Assembly (NCBI RefSeq): GCF_014541205.1
Contig: NZ_CP061280.1
Location: forward strand, 666,798-698,797
From: Mannheimia bovis
Lineage (GTDB): Bacteria; Pseudomonadota; Gammaproteobacteria; Enterobacterales; Pasteurellaceae
DNA: 32,000 bases
Direction: 5' to 3'
Numbering within the stretch: position 1 is the first letter of the stretch; each line of letters begins with the position of its first letter. The notes under the pieces were generated by a model, which worked only from the letters and a program-made list of their open reading frames with translations, made no database searches and was not told the origin of the DNA. Positions 6,425 to 31,307 of the stretch are shown in pieces. A program made the position numbers and the translations under genes.

Positions 6425-7495
6425 ATGCAACCGATTTATCATATTTTAGGCTCGGATATTCCGCATCATAATCAGCGTGTTTTAACGTTTTTTCAACAAG
6501 AGTTGCTACCTACGTTGCCGTCTTCTTCCTATTATTTTTATGTAGTGGGTAAGGATATGCTTAAAACCTATTTCCCTGATTTGGAGATAACCACTTTTTC
6601 TACTCAAAAACAAATTGCTCAAGCACTCATTGCAAAAAATCAGCAAAATCCGACCGCTTGTTTTATCTTACACGGTCAGTTTAATCTGTGGATCTGGTTT
6701 GCTATTGTGTTAGGAAAATTATCAACAGAAAATATTATCTGGCATATTTGGGGAGCAGATTTATATGAGGTCTCTGCTTCTTGGAAATTTAGATTATTTT
6801 ATCCAATTAGGCGGTTTGCTCAACGTAAGTTAAAGCAGATTTGGGCAACAAGGGGTGATCTGGATTATGTCTGGCGACGTATAAGATCAAGATCGGAACA
6901 AGATCGGTTAATCTATTTCGCAACGAAATTGCCGGATCGACATAGCGTGCAGAGAGTTAAAAATGATCAATTAACTATTTTATTAGGCAATTCAGGCGAT
7001 CCTTCTAATAATCATATTCAAGCATTAAAGGAAATCCAGCAGCGTTTGGGCAACAACGTACGAATTATTGTGCCAATGGGCTATCCGGCAAATAATGAAG
7101 GTTATATTCAGCAAGTGGAAGCTGAGGGCAAGCGGTTATTTTTAGCGGAAAATTTGCAAATTCTGCGAGAAAAATTGGATTTTGACGAATATCTTTTATT
7201 GCTTTCACAATGCGATCTCGGCTATTTTAACTTTGAACGCCAGCAAGGCATTGGTACGATTTGTTTGTTGATCCAACAGAATATTCCCTGCGTGCTACAC
7301 CCGAATAATCTGTTTGGTTTGGATATGCAAGCTGAGCAAGTGCCTTATCTGTTGGCGAAGAATATGACATTTTCAAAAATTCAAGCTGCCAAACAACAAT
7401 TAGGTGATATAAATAAAAACAACATTGCGTTTTTTCCTCAAACTTATCTGAAATTATGGCAAACACAATTAACTGAATTGATACATAATGAATAA
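6425..7495 (+). CDS. wecF: TDP-Fuc4NAc:lipid II Fuc4NAc transferase (ECA synthesis)
   Basis: MQPIYHILGSDIPHHNQRVLTFF, WHIWGADLYE and VPMGYPANNE are collinear with E. coli WecF. The start is set at the ATG aligned with the E. coli N-terminus. Confidence 0.88.
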   Translation: MQPIYHILGSDIPHHNQRVLTFFQQELLPTLPSSSYYFYVVGKDMLKTYFPDLEITTFSTQKQIAQALIAKNQQNPTACFILHGQFNLWIWFAIVLGKLSTENIIWHIWGADLYEVSASWKFRLFYPIRRFAQRKLKQIWATRGDLDYVWRRIRSRSEQDRLIYFATKLPDRHSVQRVKNDQLTILLGNSGDPSNNHIQALKEIQQRLGNNVRIIVPMGYPANNEGYIQQVEAEGKRLFLAENLQILREKLDFDEYLLLLSQCDLGYFNFERQQGIGTICLLIQQNIPCVLHPNNLFGLDMQAEQVPYLLAKNMTFSKIQAAKQQLGDINKNNIAFFPQTYLKLWQTQLTELIHNE

Positions 7496-9621: not shown

Positions 9622-9698
<77 letters not shown>

Positions 9699-9726
9699 GT
9701 TGTCAATGCAGCACTATCAACAAAAT

Positions 9727-9803
9727 GGTGGCTATAGCTCAGTTGGTAGAGCCCTGGATTGTGATTCCAGTTGTCGTGGGTTCGAATCCCATTAGCCACC
9801 CCA
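9727..9803 (+). tRNA. hisR: tRNA-His (GTG)
   Basis: Has the extra G-1, acceptor GTGGCTA/TAGCCAC, anticodon loop ATTGTGATT and encoded CCA. Confidence 0.93.
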
Positions 9804-9835
9804 TTTCAAATATACTCTTTAATTAGAGTAGCTGA

Positions 9836-9912
9836 CGGCGAGTAGCGCAGCTTGGTAGCGCAACTGGTTTGGGACCAGTGGGTCGTAGGTTCAAATCCTA
9901 TCTCGCCGACCA
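9836..9912 (+). tRNA. proM: tRNA-Pro (TGG)
   Basis: Acceptor CGGCGAG/CTCGCCG, anticodon loop TTTGGGA and encoded CCA. Confidence 0.93.
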
Positions 9913-9922
9913 CTTTTTATTT

Positions 9923-9935
9923 TGCTCTTTAACAA
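9923..9935 (+). promoter_or_regulatory. rrn leader antitermination boxA (followed by boxC-like TGTGTGGG)
   Basis: TGCTCTTTAACAA matches the E. coli boxA exactly. The next ~35 nt (TTTATCAGACAATCTGTGTGGGCAC) are almost identical to the E. coli rrn leader. Confidence 0.85.
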
Positions 9936-10120
9936 TTTATCAGACAATCTGTGTGGGCACTTGTTGATAGACTTGATTTAAAACTATTTTTTTAATTTTG
10001 AAGTCTTAATAGGTGCTTAACTAGAAATTCATTACTTTCTTTTAACTGAACTTTTTTAAGTTGAGCTAAGTTTGAAAGTGCGATTTTATGTCAGTACATA
10101 TTGAGCGATTAAACTTTTTG

Positions 10121-11659
<1,539 letters not shown>

Positions 11660-11858
11660 CCAAAAATCAAGGGCGAAGCTAAGCGAGAGCGAAGTGGAGC
11701 AGAAACGACAGCAAGTGTTCACACAGATTGTTTGATAAAGCAGTAGGACAAGATGAATGAGATTTAGACATTCAAGCGGTTAAAATCTTGCAAGATTTTG
11801 CAAATGTCGCTAAAATGTTTAACCCAAAATGGAAAAGTGGAAAGCATCTTTAAATGTT

Positions 11859-11934
11859 GTCCCCATCGTCTAGAGGCCTAGGACATCGCCCTTTCACGGC
11901 GGTAACCGGGGTTCGAATCCCCGTGGGGACGCCA
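11859..11934 (+). tRNA. gltU: tRNA-Glu (TTC) in the 16S-23S spacer
   Basis: GTCCCCATCGTCTAGAGGCC... with anticodon loop CTTTCAC and encoded CCA. Confidence 0.93.
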
Positions 11935-11960
11935 TTTAAAGATGATTTTTATTGTCTTAA

Positions 11961-11973
11961 TGTTCTTTAAAAA
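11961..11973 (+). promoter_or_regulatory. Spacer boxA-like element
   Basis: TGTTCTTTAAAAA is close to the E. coli spacer boxA and sits at the equivalent position after the spacer tRNA. Confidence 0.6.
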
Positions 11974-12138
11974 TTTAGAAACAAGCTGAAAAACTGAGAG
12001 ATTTTCGAAAGAAAGTCTGAGTAGTTCAAAAATCTTAGCTGAACAAAAGCAGCTAAGTGTTTAGTTTAAAAACTAACTTTAAGTGTTTTGTTTTTTCTTT
12101 CTCTGGATTGAAATAACAGAAAACATTTGAGGTTGTAT

Positions 12139-15038
<2,900 letters not shown>

Positions 15039-15183
15039 ACAACGCTCAAGTGTTTTTATAGAGAAACAAGAAGACACAAGGCGAAGTAAAGTAAAGACTA
15101 AACAAAAAAGACGAATGAAGAAAAGACAAACAAAGAGAAGAATACTCAAAGTAGCAGCTTGTTTTTAGATTTTAACTGAATTA

Positions 15184-15301
15184 TCCCGATGACCATAGTG
15201 CTGTGGTTCTACCTGACACCATTCCGAACTCAGAAGTAAAACGCAGTAACGTCGATGGTAGTGTGGTGTTTCGCCATGTGAGAGTAGAGCATCATCGGGT
15301 A
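15184..15301 (+). rRNA. rrf: 5S rRNA, copy 1
   Basis: Collinear with E. coli 5S (CCTGACACCATTCCGAACTCAGAAGT...GATGGTAGTGTGG...). Helix I is CCCGATGA/TCATCGGG. Confidence 0.93.
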
Positions 15302-15352
15302 TTATTTCCTGAATATTTTTGATTGAGAGCATTCAGGAAATAGAAAGAATTT

Positions 15353-15470
15353 GATTGATGACCATAGTGCTGTGGTTCTACCTGACACCATCCCGAACTC
15401 AGAAGTAAAACGCAGTAACGCCGATGGTAGTGTAGTGTTTCGCTATGTGAGAGTAGGGCATCATCAATCT
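15353..15470 (+). rRNA. rrf: 5S rRNA, copy 2 (diverged tandem copy)
   Basis: Same architecture as copy 1. Helix I is GATTGATGA/TCATCAATC. See the 5S finding for the compensatory changes. Confidence 0.9.
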
Positions 15471-15481
15471 AGGAATTTAGT

Positions 15482-15558
15482 GGAGCGGTAGTTCAGCTGG
15501 TTAGAATACCTGCCTGTCACGCAGGGGGTCGCGGGTTCGAGTCCCGTCCGTTCCGCCA
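15482..15558 (+). tRNA. aspT: tRNA-Asp (GTC)
   Basis: GGAGCGGTAGTTCAGCTGG... with anticodon loop CTGTCAC and encoded CCA. Confidence 0.93.
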
Positions 15559-15624
15559 AGTATTTAACCCTGTAGGGGCGAATAATCATTCGCCCCTATA
15601 AGTGTAAAAAGAAAAAATATCAAC

Positions 15625-15700
15625 AGGGGCGTAGTTCAATTGGTAGAGCACCGGTCTCCAAAACCGGGTGTTGGGAGTTCGAGCCTCTCCGCCCCTGCCA
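15625..15700 (+). tRNA. trpT: tRNA-Trp (CCA)
   Basis: AGGGGCGTAGTTCAATTGG... with anticodon loop CTCCAAA and encoded CCA. The Asp-Trp distal pair matches the layout of E. coli rrnC. Confidence 0.93.
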
Positions 15701-22578: not shown

Positions 22579-22654
22579 TGGTGGGTCATGAAGGATTCGA
22601 ACCTTCGACCAACGGATTAAAAGTCCGCTGCTCTACCGACTGAGCTAATGACCC
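22579..22654 (-). tRNA. tRNA-Lys (TTT), copy 3 of the array in transcription order
   Basis: The reverse complement reads GGGTCATTAGCTCAGTCGGTAGAGCAGCGGACTTTTAATCCGTTGGTCGAAGGTTCGAATCCTTCATGACCCACCA. Confidence 0.93.
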
Positions 22655-22676
22655 TCAAGGAGGTATTATAAGATAA

Positions 22677-22752
22677 TGGTGGGTCATGAAGGATTCGAAC
22701 CTTCGACCAACGGATTAAAAGTCCGCTGCTCTACCGACTGAGCTAATGACCC
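22677..22752 (-). tRNA. tRNA-Lys (TTT), copy 2
   Basis: Identical 76 nt gene, 98 bp register. Confidence 0.93.
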
Positions 22753-22774
22753 TCAAGGAAGTATTATAAGATAA

Positions 22775-22850
22775 TGGTGGGTCATGAAGGATTCGAACCT
22801 TCGACCAACGGATTAAAAGTCCGCTGCTCTACCGACTGAGCTAATGACCC
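22775..22850 (-). tRNA. tRNA-Lys (TTT), copy 1
   Basis: Identical 76 nt gene, 98 bp register. Confidence 0.93.
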
Positions 22851-24396: not shown

Positions 24397-24510
24397 GATG
24401 ACCAGCGGGTTACAAAAGCATCGCTTTTTGAACGTTGGCAAAGCCTACGGCAGCGAAGCTGTGAACAATCCTAACAAGGATTGTGAATAATTTTCACTGA
24501 TTTTTTGCAA

Positions 24511-27976: not shown

Positions 27977-28621
27977 TTATTTTCCTTTTTGGTTATGTTG
28001 ATGCCAACTCCGATACGGCTTGCGATTTTCCTGTTTATAAGGTTTGGCGGAGTCCTGAAAGGATTTTCTAGTCGCGTGAGAAAATTTTTCATCACGCTCG
28101 GTACGAGATTTTTCAAGCGGTCTATCTTCAGCATTTTTTTGCATATTATTTTGCAGAACCTGTGCAAATTCTTTCATTGCTTTACGATAAACATCTCGTT
28201 TAAAAGAAACGACCTGACGAACAGGATACCAAAAGCTTACCCATCGCCAGCCGTCAAATTCCGGATTTTTCGTCGTTTTTAGATTAATTAGACTTTCATC
28301 ACTAATAAGTTGCAATAAAAACCAGCGCTGTTTCTGCCCAATACACACAGGACCGGAACCTTCATTGCGTACCAAGCGTTTTGGCAGCTTATATTTCAGC
28401 CAATATTTAGACGCCCAAAGTAATCGCACATCTTTCTTCGTTAAGCCGACTTCTTCATAAAGCTCACGGTACATTGCTGTTTCAATGTTTTCCCCCTCGT
28501 TAATGCCGCCTTGCGGAAATTGCCAAGAGTTTTGACCAAACCGTTTTGCCCACAGAACTTGTCCGTGCTTGTTACAGATAACGATTCCAACATTTGGGCG
28601 GTAGCCATCGAAATCGATCAC
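27977..28621 (-). CDS. rppH: RNA pyrophosphohydrolase (Nudix)
   Basis: GTG start with an [26 protein letters not shown]...[23 protein letters not shown] is the Nudix box. The protein is collinear with E. coli RppH and adds a basic C-terminal tail. Confidence 0.93.
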
Positions 28622-28707
28622 TCGACCACCTAATGAATAAATTTAGAATACGGGAATTGTTTCATACTTTGAGTTGATTTGCAAAAAATCCATTAAATCC
28701 GACCGCT

Positions 28708-29065
28708 TGTGAATAACTTTGTGGATAACTATTGAATTTCAAGGGTATAAGCTGAGGATAACTACGCTGAACGTTGTAAAATAGAGTAGTTAATCAGATC
28801 TGAAAATACGATCTTTTTCTTAAGCAATGATCTGGATAAAGATCAAGTTGTTGATTTTTTTCTCATCAAAATAAGGTTAAATTTTAAAATGAGTAAACCG
28901 AGAAATTTTTACTTGCTAAAGCGTATTGAGTTATCCCCACCATTTGTGGATAAAGATGTGATAGTTTTTCAAAATAGGCGTGAATAACTTAAAAAAACTA
29001 TTCGATATTTTGAAAATATAAAATAAAATCAAATAGTTATATTTATTTCATAGAGCTGTGAATAG
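28708..29065. other. DnaA-box cluster with a GATC cluster and an IHF consensus (DARS2-like element, or replication origin)
   Basis: DnaA boxes read on the + strand: TGTGAATAA 28708, TGTGGATAA 28720, TGAGGATAA 28753, TCTGGATAA 28831, TTATCCCCA 28931, TGTGGATAA 28945, CGTGAATAA 28979, TGTGAATAG 29057. GATC occurs at 28797, 28810, 28829 and 28841. AATCAAATAGTTA at 29027-29039 fits WATCAANNNNTTR. Confidence 0.6.
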
Positions 29066-29121
29066 GCAGGGATTTTATTGGTTGTTTTTTGTTCTATATG
29101 ATGAATTAGACAAAATAGCTT

Positions 29122-29142
29122 AAAAAGGGGCAAAGCCCCTTT
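29122..29142 (-). terminator. Terminator of the TonB-dependent receptor gene
   Basis: On the minus strand, the AAAGGGGC TTT GCCCCTTT stem-loop is followed by a T-run. Confidence 0.8.
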
Positions 29143-29147
29143 AATTG

Positions 29148-31307
29148 TTAAAATTTAAATTCTACTGAAGCCATCGCATAACGTTCAGGGGCGAGATAAC
29201 GATTTAACCCCTCACCTGTTATGCTATTTGCAACTCCTGGGCTCGTAACACCAATAGTTCTTAGGTTATCCCAAGTCCAATATTTTTTATTAAAGAGGTT
29301 ATAAACGCCTACTTTAACAATTGCTCTTTCCCCAAATTTTTTGTGTGCAACCAAATCAAATACGGTTGCAGAATTACTTAAGTATGGGTAAGTAGTCAGC
29401 GAGCTATCGTAGCTTAAATAACCAGTATTGGCTAAAATCGCATATTGTTGTGCATCTTTAGCCTTTTTACCTTGTGTATATGTGCCGTTTAGGTGAACTG
29501 CCCAGTCATTGTTTGAAGCTCGATAACCTATACCAAATAAGGCTTTTAGGGGTTGAACAGTCAGTAAATCAGAGCCATCATCACGTTTCCCTTTAGCATA
29601 GCCAATTCCGCCATTCAGCTCAAAGCCTTGTGGGATCGCATTCCACGCAGCATTTAAGTCTAAAGTTCCGTTAATATCAACACCTTTGATTTTGGCTCGG
29701 TGGACATTTTGCGATTGGTAAATATTTCTCCCAACAGTTGCAAGATCAATCAGATTTCTATAATGGGTGTGGTAAGCCGTTACGCTCAAATTGCCTAATG
29801 AACCATTACCTACCAGTGAAATTTGATTACCTAAGCTGGTTTCTGGTTTCAAGTTGGTATTTGCTAGGAAAATTTGGCTCATACCACGCCCTTGAACCTC
29901 ACGGTTAAAGAACATTTCACTTGCAGTCGGTGTTCTAAAGCCACGACTGATCTTATAGCCAACCTGCCATACAGGGGAGAGTTGATAATTTAAACCAATA
30001 TCGCCAGCCCAATTATTAAACTGTTTATTTGAAACTCTATTATCATCAGAACTTAAAGCTGTTCTTTCATATCTTGCATTAATATGGCTTGATAATCGCT
30101 GATTTAACAGGATTGAATCTCCCAATAAAATATGGAAGTTTTTTGTTTTTGCTGGCGACTGCATATTTTGATCGGTTGGCGTAATACCTGCTGTATAGGT
30201 TTTCATATCAAAACGGAAATCAGATACTCCATAGCCTAATTCAGTTGAAAATCTATGTTCTGTACTCCCTAGATGGGCTGGCTTGAAGGTGCTTGCTAAC
30301 CTGCCTTCAACCGTGTTGGTATGAAAGGCACGCTTGGTATTATCTGTTTTTACGCCTCTTGTTGTATTAATTTGATCATTTCTACCCGAAATTTCGGTGT
30401 CTTGTTTAGTTACAGAGAACTTAATATTCTCAAAAATAGTTGCTTTTGGCGTATATAAATAGGTAACACCATAGGTGTCTATTTCTTGCACATCAGTGAA
30501 ATCACGCAATGTTGTTTCTGAGTAGGAAAGTTCCTGACCGACCATTTTACGGCGTTGTTTTAAGGCTTTCAGTTCAAGGCGATTTTCATCATTCCATTTT
30601 AGACCCATTTTGGCTAAGTAACTGTATTGGTTATTTTTGTAAGGATTTGGTAATCCACGCCCGGTTCCCATAATATTAGGCCCATTTGAGGTGGTTTGCA
30701 CTTCATTACCCTGACGGTGGCTATAGACAAAAAGTGCATCTGCATATTGTCCGTCTGCAGCTATAGATGCCGTTTTAATATGCTCTTTATTTTGACCGTT
30801 ATAGCCATACTTTAGCATTCCGCCAGCTTTACGATCTTTCATTAAAATATCATCAACTGTTTTAGTGGTGTAATTGACCGCTCCTCCTAATGCACCGTTA
30901 ACTGCTGATGTGCTTGAGCCTTTTTCAATAGACACATTACCCATTAATTCAGTATCAATTTCAGGGCGAGATTTGTTGTAATAACTATAGCGACTAAATG
31001 TAGCATAGTTATTTGATGCTGCTGATGAGATACCATCAACGGTGATAGTAACTTGATTATTCTCAACACCACGAATATTAAATCCTTGCGAACCAAAGCG
31101 ACCTGTTTGAGGTACACCCATATCGGTACTATAACGTACTAAGTCTTGATTGCTATTTATAATTTGCTGTTTGAGCAGATTTTTGTGTTGTTCATTAACT
31201 TCAATTGTCTCTAGTTCAACAGAGTTTACGGCTGTTTCTTGGGCAAGTGAAAGTTGGGAAATAGCAGTAGTAATAACTATCGCTAATGTGGTTCGCTTGA
31301 TATGCAT
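29148..31307 (-). CDS. TonB-dependent outer-membrane receptor, probably heme/hemoprotein type
   Basis: 719 aa with a signal peptide, a TonB box (ELETIEV), a plug region (FNIRGVE...VDG) and a C-terminal ...VEFKF. The neighbouring gene is a heme-type substrate-binding protein. Confidence 0.85.
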   Translation of the reverse strand: MHIKRTTLAIVITTAISQLSLAQETAVNSVELETIEVNEQHKNLLKQQIINSNQDLVRYSTDMGVPQTGRFGSQGFNIRGVENNQVTITVDGISSAASNNYATFSRYSYYNKSRPEIDTELMGNVSIEKGSSTSAVNGALGGAVNYTTKTVDDILMKDRKAGGMLKYGYNGQNKEHIKTASIAADGQYADALFVYSHRQGNEVQTTSNGPNIMGTGRGLPNPYKNNQYSYLAKMGLKWNDENRLELKALKQRRKMVGQELSYSETTLRDFTDVQEIDTYGVTYLYTPKATIFENIKFSVTKQDTEISGRNDQINTTRGVKTDNTKRAFHTNTVEGRLASTFKPAHLGSTEHRFSTELGYGVSDFRFDMKTYTAGITPTDQNMQSPAKTKNFHILLGDSILLNQRLSSHINARYERTALSSDDNRVSNKQFNNWAGDIGLNYQLSPVWQVGYKISRGFRTPTASEMFFNREVQGRGMSQIFLANTNLKPETSLGNQISLVGNGSLGNLSVTAYHTHYRNLIDLATVGRNIYQSQNVHRAKIKGVDINGTLDLNAAWNAIPQGFELNGGIGYAKGKRDDGSDLLTVQPLKALFGIGYRASNNDWAVHLNGTYTQGKKAKDAQQYAILANTGYLSYDSSLTTYPYLSNSATVFDLVAHKKFGERAIVKVGVYNLFNKKYWTWDNLRTIGVTSPGVANSITGEGLNRYLAPERYAMASVEFKF

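What the first reader, a model, noticed from the sequence alone, without database searches (positions are those of the whole stretch)
28700..29070. DnaA-box cluster upstream of rppH: candidate DARS2-type DnaA-reactivating sequence, with oriC as the alternative
The 526 bp gap between rppH and the receptor gene holds at least 8 DnaA-box-like 9-mers in about 350 bp. Two are perfect TGTGGATAA and one matches the relaxed TTATNCACA consensus; the other five each have one mismatch. The two boxes at 28931-28953 (TTATCCCCA, 5 nt, TGTGGATAA) face each other. Four GATC sites fall within 48 bp (28797-28844), three of them as GATCT. A perfect IHF consensus lies at 29027-29039 inside a very A/T-rich tract. 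As I recall, E. coli DARS2 maps to the mutH-rppH (ygdP/nudH) intergenic region. Its core has oppositely oriented DnaA boxes and it is regulated through IHF and Fis sites. The rppH...lgt linkage is conserved here, so the cluster sits at the syntenic position. I am not aware of DARS elements being described in Pasteurellaceae. The oriC alternative is favoured by the GATCT-led A/T 13-mer-like repeats. It is disfavoured because the rrn operon 13 kb to the left would then be transcribed head-on into the leftward fork, and only one 13-mer (GATCTTTTTCTTA) fits the E. coli consensus well.
Basis: partly seen in the sequence, partly recalled or inferred. Interest (0 to 1): 0.75.

Follow-up and report, generated by a model that had tools for sequence, protein, structure and literature searches.

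The report
DARS2-type DnaA-reactivating site upstream of rppH
The non-coding stretch upstream of rppH in this Mannheimia genome is most likely the counterpart of E. coli DARS2, a DNA site that recharges the replication initiator DnaA with ATP, and it is not the replication origin.

Summary
The 526-bp gap between rppH and the receptor gene holds 8 DnaA boxes, against about 1 expected. It also holds 4 GATC sites within 48 bp and a perfect IHF consensus.

The interpretation as DARS2 is supported. Positions 28931-28965 read TTATCCCCA-5bp-TGTGGATAA-3bp-TGTGATAGT. This is the box I / II / III layout of the E. coli DARS cores, in the same orientation relative to rppH.

The three boxes are nearly invariant, and both spacers vary freely, in about 33 Pasteurellaceae species. 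An IHF-like site sits 85-86 bp from box II in almost all of them. E. coli IBS1-2 lies 71-99 bp away on the same side. P. multocida, Avibacterium and P. testudinis carry a core almost identical to the E. coli DARS2 core. Some basal Pasteurellaceae still have mutH next to rppH.

The oriC alternative is rejected. A canonical oriC lies next to mnmG in Mannheimia granulomatis, A. pleuropneumoniae and H. influenzae. The rrn operon in the window also points towards the element.

Features specific to this lineage are a conserved GATC cluster, a tandem pair of strong boxes near the rppH promoter, and loss of the element upstream of rppH in H. influenzae.

ADP release from DnaA is inferred, not shown. 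I rate it a new member of a known kind, of moderate interest.

The parts
28931..28939 (+). DnaA box I (TTATCCCCA, one mismatch). It converges on box II across a 5-bp spacer.
   Evidence: It is invariant as TGGGGATAA (read in the rppH-forward orientation) in about 30 species, while the spacer varies.
28945..28953 (-). DnaA box II (TTATCCACA, perfect consensus). It is probably the nucleating high-affinity site.
   Evidence: It has the same position and orientation as box II of E. coli DARS1 and DARS2.
28957..28965 (-). DnaA box III (ACTATCACA, degenerate). It lies 3 bp from box II in the same orientation.
   Evidence: Conserved as [T/A]CTATCACA at a fixed 3-bp distance in about 30 species. E. 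coli box III is TTCTTCACA with the same spacing.
28979..28987 (-). Accessory DnaA box (TTATTCACG), starting 34 bp from the start of box II.
   Evidence: Conserved as TTAT[A/T]CACG at a fixed position in the Mannheimia/Actinobacillus clade.
29027..29039 (-). IHF-binding consensus (TAACTATTTGATT on the minus strand). It starts 86 bp from the start of box II.
   Evidence: It is a perfect YAANNNNTTGATW. An IHF-like motif starts 85-86 bp from box II in about 32 species, including P. testudinis and Spirabiliibacterium. The same motif, TAACTTATTGTTTT, occupies the IHF position of the oriC of M. granulomatis.
29057..29065 (-). DnaA box (CTATTCACA) between the IHF site and the Fis-like block. It is restricted to Mannheimia.
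29080..29094 (-). Conserved A-rich block (GAACAAAAAACAACC). It is a candidate Fis site with one mismatch to GNNYANNNNNTRNNC.
   Evidence: The block is conserved. It matches the Fis consensus exactly in about 20 of 36 species, at 129-142 bp from box II. Binding is inferred only.
28797..28844 (.). GATC cluster (4 sites) enclosing DnaA box 28831-28839. It is a candidate Dam/SeqA module.
   Evidence: Summed over the elements of 36 species there are 184 GATC against 44.8 expected, and 32 of 36 species have at least 3. E. coli has no GATC in the equivalent stretch.
28753..28761 (-). DnaA box (TTATCCTCA).
   Evidence: It is moderately conserved as GTTATCC.
28708..28728 (-). Tandem head-to-tail DnaA boxes (TTATCCACA-aag-TTATTCACA), 87-107 bp upstream of the rppH start codon.
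   Evidence: The tandem pair with a 3-bp spacer is conserved in almost all Pasteurellaceae loci examined.
28656..28668 (-). Conserved AGTATGAAACAAT. It is probably the extended -10 region of the rppH promoter. It anchors the homology of this gap with the E. coli gap.
   Evidence: Nearly invariant in 33 species. TATGAAACAATC occurs at the same distance from rppH in E. coli and H. influenzae. The promoter role is inferred, and the consensus scan did not call it.
29123..29143 (-). G+C-rich inverted repeat (AAAGGGGC-ttt-GCCCCTTT) just after the receptor gene's stop codon. It is a probable terminator and marks the outer edge of the element.
   Evidence: Read from the sequence. The simple terminator scan did not call it.

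Best explanation
This is the Pasteurellaceae counterpart of E. coli DARS2, a non-coding chromosomal site that turns inactive ADP-DnaA back into ATP-DnaA.

Proposed mechanism (inferred from the E. coli system, not shown here):
1. DnaA binds the perfect box II (28945-28953).
2. It recruits a second DnaA to the weak, oppositely oriented box I, 5 bp away. This forces a head-to-head contact between the AAA+ domains.
3. It recruits a third DnaA to box III, 3 bp away, in head-to-tail contact.
4. IHF, bound at a site starting 86 bp away (29027-29039), bends the DNA. The bend brings a factor bound further out, probably Fis at 29080-29094, against the core complex.
5. ADP is released. The nucleotide-free DnaA leaves and rebinds ATP.

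The GATC cluster and the tandem strong boxes between the core and the rppH promoter are lineage-specific additions. They probably time or damp this activity, or regulate rppH.
For: Anatomy:
- 28931-28965 reads TTATCCCCA-ccatt-TGTGGATAA-aga-TGTGATAGT.
- E. coli DARS2 core reads TTATTCACC-ttttc-TGTGGATAG-agt-TGTGAAGAA.
- E. coli DARS1 core reads TTATCCACT-attcc-TGTGGATAA-cca-TGTGTATTA.

Specificity:
- A scan for convergent boxes 5 bp apart finds DARS1 and DARS2. It finds nothing in 5 kb around datA or 7 kb around oriC.
- It finds one hit in the 32-kb window.
- In 1.06 Mb of 61 rppH loci, all 37 hits lie at the rppH-upstream site. Other spacings give 0-3 hits.

Conservation:
- The three boxes are nearly invariant, and both spacers vary, in about 33 species of Mannheimia, Actinobacillus, Glaesserella, H. 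ducreyi, Bibersteinia and others.
- The IHF-like motif keeps a start 85-86 bp from box II, with no insertions or deletions, even though the sequence in between diverges. The distance from the core to rppH varies between 316 and 448 bp.

Orthology:
- The orientation relative to rppH is the same as in E. coli.
- E. coli IBS1-2 (TAATGCATTGACT-gat-AATGAATATTTTA, confirmed from the published primers) lies 71-99 bp from box II on the same side.
- P. multocida has TTATCCACA-gaaac-AGTGAATAA and P. testudinis has TTATCCACA-gaaaa-CCTGAATAA. Both nearly equal the Enterobacterales core xTATCCACA-gaaaa-xGTGAATAA.
- mutH is still the divergent neighbour of rppH in P. testudinis and Spirabiliibacterium.
- The rppH promoter-proximal block TATGAAACAATC is shared with E. 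coli.

Independence from neighbours: the upstream gene differs between species. The receptor gene is upstream only in the window and in L002. The element nevertheless stays with rppH.

Known biology: the 5-bp head-to-head arrangement, box III, and the position-sensitive IHF site are the features shown to be needed for ADP release in E. coli (PMC6868365, PMC4245941, PMC11724364).
Against: - No biochemical or genetic test exists for any Pasteurellaceae species. The activity is inferred from sequence.
- Box III in the window is very degenerate, with four mismatches in register. Only the TCACA end is shared with E. coli.
- The Fis-like block has one mismatch in the window, and the Fis consensus is loose. 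E. coli DARS2 strictly needs Fis.
- No clear counterpart of the E. coli box V / FBS2-3 feedback cluster was found.
- E. coli has a second, distal triple of the same layout around its box VI. Mutating box VI did not matter in plasmid assays. So the layout alone does not guarantee activity, and orthology to that distal triple cannot be fully excluded.
- H. influenzae has no such element upstream of rppH, so it is not indispensable in the family.
- DnaA residues Gln208 and Leu290 were not checked in Mannheimia.
Confidence: 0.72

Rival explanations
1. It is the chromosomal replication origin, oriC. The DnaA boxes would form the initiation complex and the GATCT-led A/T stretch would be the unwinding element.
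For: The gap holds many DnaA boxes, an IHF site, four GATC sites (three as GATCT) and is 71% A+T. The local GC-skew comparison of flanks in 26 loci was ambiguous, with 11 showing a weak origin-like sign change.
Against: - A canonical oriC lies next to mnmG in the same genus (M. granulomatis L067:4552-5000), in A. pleuropneumoniae (L068) and in H. influenzae (L064). It has R4, a central box pair, an IHF site and R1, followed by three GATCT 13-mers, with 6-11 GATC sites. This layout is colinear with E. coli oriC.
- Published GC-skew work places oriC next to gidA in A. pleuropneumoniae, H. ducreyi and P. multocida (PMC2175527 and PMC6409639).
- mnmG is not within the window or within 10 kb of rppH in any of 61 loci.
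- The rrn operon at 10120-15470 is on the plus strand. It would be transcribed head-on into a fork coming from 28.8 kb.
- H. ducreyi has strongly positive skew on both flanks, +0.15 and +0.13, with no switch.
- The convergent 5-bp pair is absent from the four oriC regions examined.
Confidence: 0.02
2. It is a DnaA-dependent transcriptional control region for the rppH-lgt operon, possibly with sequestration by SeqA as at the dnaA promoter. It would have no role in nucleotide exchange.
For: The tandem perfect boxes end about 23 bp upstream of a plausible -35 element (TTGCAA) with an extended -10 element (TGaAACAAT). They are conserved. The GATC cluster lies just upstream. DnaA is a known transcription factor (general knowledge).
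Against: - This could explain the proximal module (28708-28844). It does not explain a triple 310 bp upstream with the exact DARS geometry and an IHF site held at a fixed 85-86 bp distance.
- The E. coli counterpart at the same locus has a demonstrated DARS function.
- H. influenzae keeps the promoter block but has lost all the boxes. rppH expression therefore does not need them.
Confidence: 0.14
3. It is a datA-like or purely titrating site. The cluster would soak up DnaA or, with IHF, promote hydrolysis of DnaA-bound ATP, which is the opposite of reactivation.
For: Like datA, it combines several DnaA boxes with one IHF site. Three boxes are perfect or relaxed-perfect and would titrate DnaA in any case.
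Against: - The E. coli datA region has no convergent 5-bp pair.
- The locus is the DARS2 position, not the tRNA-Gly/queG position of datA.
- Core sequence, orientation and IHF distance match DARS2.
- The sequence cannot rule out that the extra tandem boxes act as a titration sink alongside a DARS function.
Confidence: 0.08

Closest known systems
E. coli DARS2 (DnaA-reactivating sequence 2, rppH/ygdP-mutH intergenic region; Fujimitsu 2009, Kasho 2014)
   Same: - Same locus, upstream of rppH, with the rppH...lgt linkage kept.
- Same orientation relative to rppH.
- Same core layout: box I, 5 bp, box II, 3 bp, box III.
- A weak box I.
- An IHF site on the box III side at a similar distance: starting at 86 bp here, against 71-99 bp for E. 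coli IBS1-2.
- A candidate Fis site further out.
- The P. multocida, Avibacterium and P. testudinis versions have nearly the E. coli core sequence, including the GAAAx spacer.
   Different: - The core lies 310-450 bp from rppH instead of about 160 bp.
- Box II is a perfect consensus, as in DARS1.
- There is a single IHF site rather than two adjacent ones.
- The Fis-like block lies about 45-55 bp beyond the IHF site, not roughly equidistant as in E. coli.
- There is no recognisable box V / FBS2-3 cluster.
- A GATC cluster and a tandem pair of strong boxes lie between the core and the rppH promoter. E. coli has none of these.
- mutH is no longer the neighbour in the Mannheimia clade.
- Activity has not been tested.
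E. coli DARS1 (bioD-uvrB intergenic region)
   Same: It has the same three-box core with a perfect box II: TTATCCACT-attcc-TGTGGATAA-cca-TGTGTATTA.
   Different: It lies at a different locus. DARS1 needs no IHF or Fis, whereas this element carries a spacing-constrained IHF site.
E. coli DnaA box VI region (distal triple in the same rppH-mutH gap)
   Same: TCTTACACC-atg-TTATCCACA-gaaag-CTGGGATAA has the same layout. Its box I ends in GGGATAA, like TGGGGATAA in the Mannheimia clade.
   Different: It has no IHF site at 86 bp, only weak matches at 109 bp. It lies on the mutH side, about 316 bp beyond the DARS2 core. It was reported to be dispensable.
oriC of Pasteurellaceae and E. coli (mnmG-adjacent)
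   Same: It shares DnaA boxes, an IHF site with the same TAACTTATTGTTTT motif, GATC enrichment and A+T richness.
   Different: oriC has head-to-tail arrays framed by R1 and R4, three GATCT 13-mers next to R1, and 6-14 GATC sites. It has no convergent 5-bp pair and lies at a different locus.
E. coli datA
   Same: It is a cluster of DnaA boxes with one IHF site.
   Different: It has no convergent 5-bp pair. It lies at a different locus and has the opposite biochemical outcome.

Membership tests
DARS2 | Core with DnaA boxes I and II in opposite orientation, separated by 5 bp | tested here: met
   TTATCCCCA-ccatt-TGTGGATAA at 28931-28953. The same scan recovers E. coli DARS1 and DARS2 and nothing in datA or oriC. 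All 37 hits in 1.06 Mb of related loci lie at this site.
DARS2 | Box III next to box II in the same orientation, allowing head-to-tail contact | tested here: met
   TGTGATAGT at 28957-28965, 3 bp from box II as in E. coli. It is degenerate, with four mismatches. However, [T/A]CTATCACA is nearly invariant at this position in about 30 species.
DARS2 | IHF-binding site flanking the core at a constrained distance (IBS1-2 is essential and position-sensitive in E. coli) | tested here: met
   A perfect consensus lies at 29027-29039. An IHF-like motif starts 85-86 bp from box II in about 32 species. E. coli IBS1-2 lies at 71-99 bp on the same side. IHF binding itself was not tested.
DARS2 | Fis-binding sites beyond the IHF site (FBS2-3 is essential in E. 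coli) | tested here: inconclusive
   A conserved block at 29080-29094 has one mismatch to the Fis consensus. The block matches exactly in about 20 of 36 species. The consensus is loose and the geometry differs from E. coli.
DARS2 | Position in the rppH(ygdP)-mutH intergenic region | tested here: met
   The element is upstream of rppH, with lgt downstream. mutH is replaced by other genes in the Mannheimia clade. It is still adjacent in P. testudinis and Spirabiliibacterium, which carry the same element.
DARS2 | Box V cluster overlapping the Fis sites (ATP-DnaA negative feedback) | tested here: inconclusive
   There is no cluster of a strong box with flanking weak boxes next to the Fis-like block. 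A single box at 29057-29065 is specific to Mannheimia. The tandem boxes at 28708-28728 lie on the other side of the core.
DARS2 | Promotes ADP release from ADP-DnaA and raises initiation frequency | not testable with these tools
   This needs an in vitro nucleotide-release assay and in vivo deletion or multicopy experiments.
DARS2 | DnaA retains the residues needed for the DARS reaction (Gln208, Leu290 in E. coli numbering) | not tested
oriC | Unwinding element of repeated A/T-rich 13-mers next to an ordered R1...R4 box array | tested here: not met
   Only one passable 13-mer is present, and the boxes are not arranged as R1-IHF-...-R4. The mnmG-adjacent gaps of M. granulomatis, A. pleuropneumoniae and H. 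influenzae do show that arrangement.
oriC | Site where replication direction switches (GC skew, orientation of rrn operons) | tested here: not met
   The rrn operon points towards the element. H. ducreyi shows no skew switch. Published skew analyses place oriC at gidA. The local skew test across 26 loci was uninformative on its own. Whole-genome skew could not be computed.
datA | Box cluster with an IHF site between oppositely placed essential boxes, near the tRNA-Gly genes, promoting ATP hydrolysis | tested here: not met
   The locus and the layout are different. E. coli datA has no convergent 5-bp pair. The biochemical outcome is not testable here.

The most novel reading that the evidence does not exclude
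Pasteurellaceae may run a re-wired DARS2. A conserved GATC cluster (and, in many genera, GATC sites overlapping the accessory box and box III) would put DnaA reactivation under Dam/SeqA control. The site would be shut off by hemimethylation after the fork passes and would become active again only later in the cycle. The tandem strong boxes would act as an ATP-DnaA sensor. Together these would replace the Fis/box V feedback of E. coli. The loss of the element upstream of rppH in H. influenzae would then mark a lineage that regulates DnaA differently.
Probability: 0.2. Interest if true: 0.65.

Novelty: new member of a known kind. Interest (0 to 1): 0.42.

Why it matters
DARS2 is the main route by which E. 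coli regenerates active DnaA before each round of replication. Published comparisons that I could read list only Enterobacterales, Vibrio, Shewanella and Aeromonas.

Finding the same core and an IHF site at a fixed distance in Pasteurellaceae extends the system to a family of important animal and human pathogens. That family includes Mannheimia, Actinobacillus, Glaesserella, Pasteurella and H. ducreyi.

The comparison is also a natural mutagenesis experiment. It shows which features are under selection:
- the three boxes;
- the 5-bp and 3-bp spacings, but not the spacer sequences;
- the 85-86 bp distance to the IHF site.

It further points to lineage-specific regulation through GATC sites, and to loss of the element upstream of rppH in H. 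influenzae. Both are directly testable.

Tried and rejected
- **Exact-protein look-up.** Looking up the window's RppH found no record.
- **Local GC skew.** I compared 10-kb flanks in 26 loci. The skews were weak and followed gene strand, so the test could not decide between oriC and non-oriC. I used rrn orientation, the literature and a direct look at the mnmG locus instead.
- **First mapping of the E. coli core.** I first took the E. coli pair TTATCCCAG-ctttc-TGTGGATAA (L001:7451-7473) for the DARS2 core. The published deletion and substitution primers showed the core is at L001:7136-7170 and that the other pair contains box VI. I then weighed orthology to either triple and preferred the core. 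The reasons were the IHF site's position and the E. coli-like cores of P. multocida and P. testudinis.
- **rppH-proximal tandem boxes as a core remnant.** I considered that the tandem boxes (28708-28728) might be a degenerate remnant of the core. There is no box I 5 bp away in the window or in most species. Spirabiliibacterium does keep a full second triple at that position.
- **Distance from oriC.** I tried to obtain oriC and rppH coordinates in one complete P. multocida genome. The look-ups returned different strains: mnmG at 2.04 Mb of LR134488.1 and rppH at 0.36 Mb of LT906448.1. No distance is claimed.
- **Promoter and terminator scans.** The consensus scans of the gap found nothing useful on the minus strand.
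- **Rfam.** No RNA family matched in the gap.
- **Fujimitsu et al. 2009.** The paper could not be read.
- **Probe sequences.** They served only as search probes. Only the database proteins they retrieved are used as evidence.
Full report
**1. What is in the sequence**

rppH occupies 27977-28621 on the minus strand. Upstream of it on the same strand lies a TonB-dependent receptor gene of the haemoglobin/transferrin/lactoferrin family (29148-31307). Downstream of rppH lie a TauE-type membrane protein gene and lgt.

Shuffles of the gap give a mean of 1.07, and 0 of 2000 shuffles reach 8. It is the densest such stretch in the window. Four GATC sites lie within 48 bp, and a perfect IHF consensus lies at 29027-29039.

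**2. Where E. coli DARS2 really is**

In MG1655, rppH and mutH are divergent neighbours separated by 684 bp. [quoted passage not shown]

TTATTCACC-ttttc-TGTGGATAG-agt-TGTGAAGAA

It lies at L001:7136-7170, 158-192 bp upstream of rppH.

The literature defines the core as follows. Boxes I and II are opposed and 5 bp apart. Box III is head-to-tail with box II. The head-to-head contact of AAA+ domains releases ADP (PMC6868365). DARS2 also needs IHF at IBS1-2 and Fis at FBS2-3, and moving IBS1-2 by 5 bp impairs activity (PMC4245941). Primers from that paper identify IBS1-2 as TAATGCATTGACT-gat-AATGAATATTTTA. This lies 71-99 bp from the start of box II, on the box III side.

**3. The window has the same core**

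Positions 28931-28965 read TTATCCCCA-ccatt-TGTGGATAA-aga-TGTGATAGT. This has the same order of boxes, the same 5-bp and 3-bp spacers and the same orientation relative to rppH. The IHF consensus starts 86 bp from the start of box II, on the box III side.

A scan for convergent boxes 5 bp apart gave these results:

| Region scanned | Hits |
|---|---|
| E. coli DARS1 region | 1, the DARS1 core |
| E. coli DARS2 region | 1, the DARS2 core |
| 5 kb around E. coli datA | 0 |
| 7 kb around E. coli oriC | 0 |
| The 32-kb window | 1, at 28931 |
| 61 rppH loci, 1.06 Mb | 37, all at the rppH-upstream site |

In the 61 loci, other spacings between 0 and 15 bp gave 0-3 hits each.

**4. Conservation**

The window comes from Mannheimia. 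Its RppH is 99% identical to that of M. indoligenes.

- In about 33 Pasteurellaceae species the triple [T/A]CTATCACA-N3-TTATCCACA-N5-TGGGGATAA lies 316-375 bp upstream of rppH. The species include Mannheimia, Actinobacillus, Glaesserella, H. ducreyi, H. parahaemolyticus, Bibersteinia, Nicoletella, Ursidibacter and Otariodibacter. The boxes are almost invariant and both spacers vary freely.
- When the sequences are anchored on box II without gaps, an IHF-like motif (TAACTTATTGTTT, or a perfect consensus in Mannheimia) starts 85-86 bp away in about 32 species. These include the deep-branching P. testudinis and Spirabiliibacterium. The sequence in between is poorly conserved.
- By contrast, the distance from the core to rppH varies by more than 100 bp.
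- The same TAACTTATTGTTTT motif occupies the IHF position in the oriC of M. granulomatis. This supports reading it as an IHF site.
- Further out, a conserved block (G.TTAAAAAATAA.C) fits the Fis consensus exactly in about 20 of 36 species. In the window it has one mismatch (29080-29094). This remains a candidate only.

**5. Orthology with E. coli**

Several lines link the two elements:
- The promoter-proximal block TATGAAACAATC is shared by E. coli, Mannheimia and H. influenzae.
- mutH is still the divergent neighbour of rppH in P. testudinis and Spirabiliibacterium. It is also the neighbour in Enterobacterales, Vibrionaceae and an alteromonad.
- The cores of P. multocida (TCAACCACA-att-TTATCCACA-gaaac-AGTGAATAA), Avibacterium and P. 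testudinis (TTATCCACA-gaaaa-CCTGAATAA) are nearly the Enterobacterales core xTATCCACA-gaaaa-xGTGAATAA. They occupy the same place in the same overall layout as the Mannheimia triple.

One caveat applies. E. coli, Hafnia and Erwinia carry a second, distal triple (TCTTACACC-atg-TTATCCACA-gaaag-CTGGGATAA). Its perfect box is the published box VI, which was reported dispensable. Its box I resembles the TGGGGATAA of the Mannheimia clade. I prefer orthology to the core because of the position of the IHF site. The distal triple has only weak IHF-like matches at 109 bp.

**6. What is different here**

- Two head-to-tail strong boxes lie 87-107 bp from the rppH start. They are conserved almost family-wide.
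- A GATC-rich stretch lies between those boxes and the core. Across 36 species the element holds 184 GATC sites against 44.8 expected, and 32 species have at least three. The species are related, so this is not an independent count.
- In many genera, GATC sites also overlap the accessory box and box III.
- E. coli has no GATC site in the equivalent stretch.
- The upstream gene varies. The receptor gene is upstream only in the window and in its closest relative.
- H. influenzae has proB 80 bp upstream of rppH and no boxes at all.

**7. It is not oriC**

- The gaps upstream of mnmG in M. granulomatis, A. pleuropneumoniae and H. influenzae show the classical origin. It has R4, a central pair of boxes, an IHF site and R1, followed by three GATCT-led 13-mers, with 6-11 GATC sites. 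This is colinear with E. coli oriC.
- Genome papers place oriC there by GC skew in A. pleuropneumoniae, H. ducreyi and P. multocida.
- mnmG is absent from the window and from all 61 rppH loci.
- The rrn operon in the window is transcribed towards the element.
- H. ducreyi shows no skew switch across the element.
- My broader local-skew test was uninformative. Whole-genome skew could not be computed.

**8. Mechanism, and how sure**

Shown here:
- the anatomy;
- its statistical specificity;
- its conservation pattern;
- its correspondence to DARS2 in position and geometry;
- the existence of a separate oriC.

Inferred from E. coli work:
- IHF bends the DNA to bring an outer factor to the core.
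- ADP is released.

Speculative:
- The GATC cluster makes the site sensitive to Dam/SeqA.
- The tandem boxes sense DnaA level or regulate rppH.

I put 0.72 on a DARS2-type function. Most of the remainder goes to a purely transcriptional or titrating role. About 0.02 goes to oriC.

**9. Novelty**

The published species lists that I could read cover only Enterobacterales, Vibrio, Shewanella and Aeromonas (Kasho 2014 Figure S10 and Miyoshi 2021 Figure 8). Full-text searches found no link between DARS and Pasteurellaceae.

This is a new member of a known kind, with lineage-specific additions. It is useful rather than surprising.

Noticed in passing
window 6857-7001: A second GATC cluster, 7 sites in 145 bp. 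It lies inside the coding sequence of wecF (TDP-N-acetylfucosamine:lipid II N-acetylfucosaminyltransferase).
   Followed up: no
window 24404-24497 (+): An Rfam match to Aggregatibacter sRNA 22 (RF02902, 58.6 bits against a gathering score of 39.8). It lies in the short gap between the convergent M48 protease and trpS genes. A DnaA-box-like 9-mer (TTATTCACA) lies at 24482-24490.
   Followed up: no
window 9622-15697 and 22582-22850: The rrn operon carries two tandem 5S genes and is flanked by tRNA genes on both sides. Three tRNA genes with identical scores lie in tandem on the minus strand at 22582-22850.
   Followed up: no
L001:7451-7485 (E. coli MG1655 rppH-mutH gap); also L045, L043: E. coli has a second triple of DARS-core layout, about 316 bp beyond the DARS2 core. 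It reads TCTTACACC-atg-TTATCCACA-gaaag-CTGGGATAA in the rppH-forward orientation. Its perfect box is the published DnaA box VI. The whole block is conserved in Hafnia and Erwinia. The accessible text mentions box VI but not this arrangement around it.
   Followed up: partly
L070:2921-3000 (H. influenzae CP089177.1): In H. influenzae, proB ends 80 bp upstream of rppH. That gap has no DnaA box, GATC site or IHF site, so the element is absent from this position. Whether it has moved elsewhere in the genome is unknown.
   Followed up: partly
L038, L042, L062 (Spirabiliibacterium), 129-383 bp upstream of rppH: These genomes keep mutH next to rppH and have two triples. One lies at -365/-383 with an IHF site at 86 bp. 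The other lies at -129/-135, where other Pasteurellaceae have only the tandem boxes. This suggests the tandem pair is a remnant of a second core.
   Followed up: partly
L067:4552-5000, L068:4531-5000, L064:3498-4000: The oriC regions of Pasteurellaceae next to mnmG have a closely spaced inverted pair of perfect boxes at the centre: TGTGGATAA-9bp-TTATCCACA in M. granulomatis and A. pleuropneumoniae. This fits the remark in PMC4451416 about extra central high-affinity sites in H. influenzae.
   Followed up: no
L020 (H. paracuniculus), L029, L036, L039-L041: Several Pasteurellaceae loci show no recognisable triple upstream of rppH. In H. paracuniculus, rppH and mnmG appear to lie on the same 204-kb contig, judging from matching contig lengths.
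   Followed up: no
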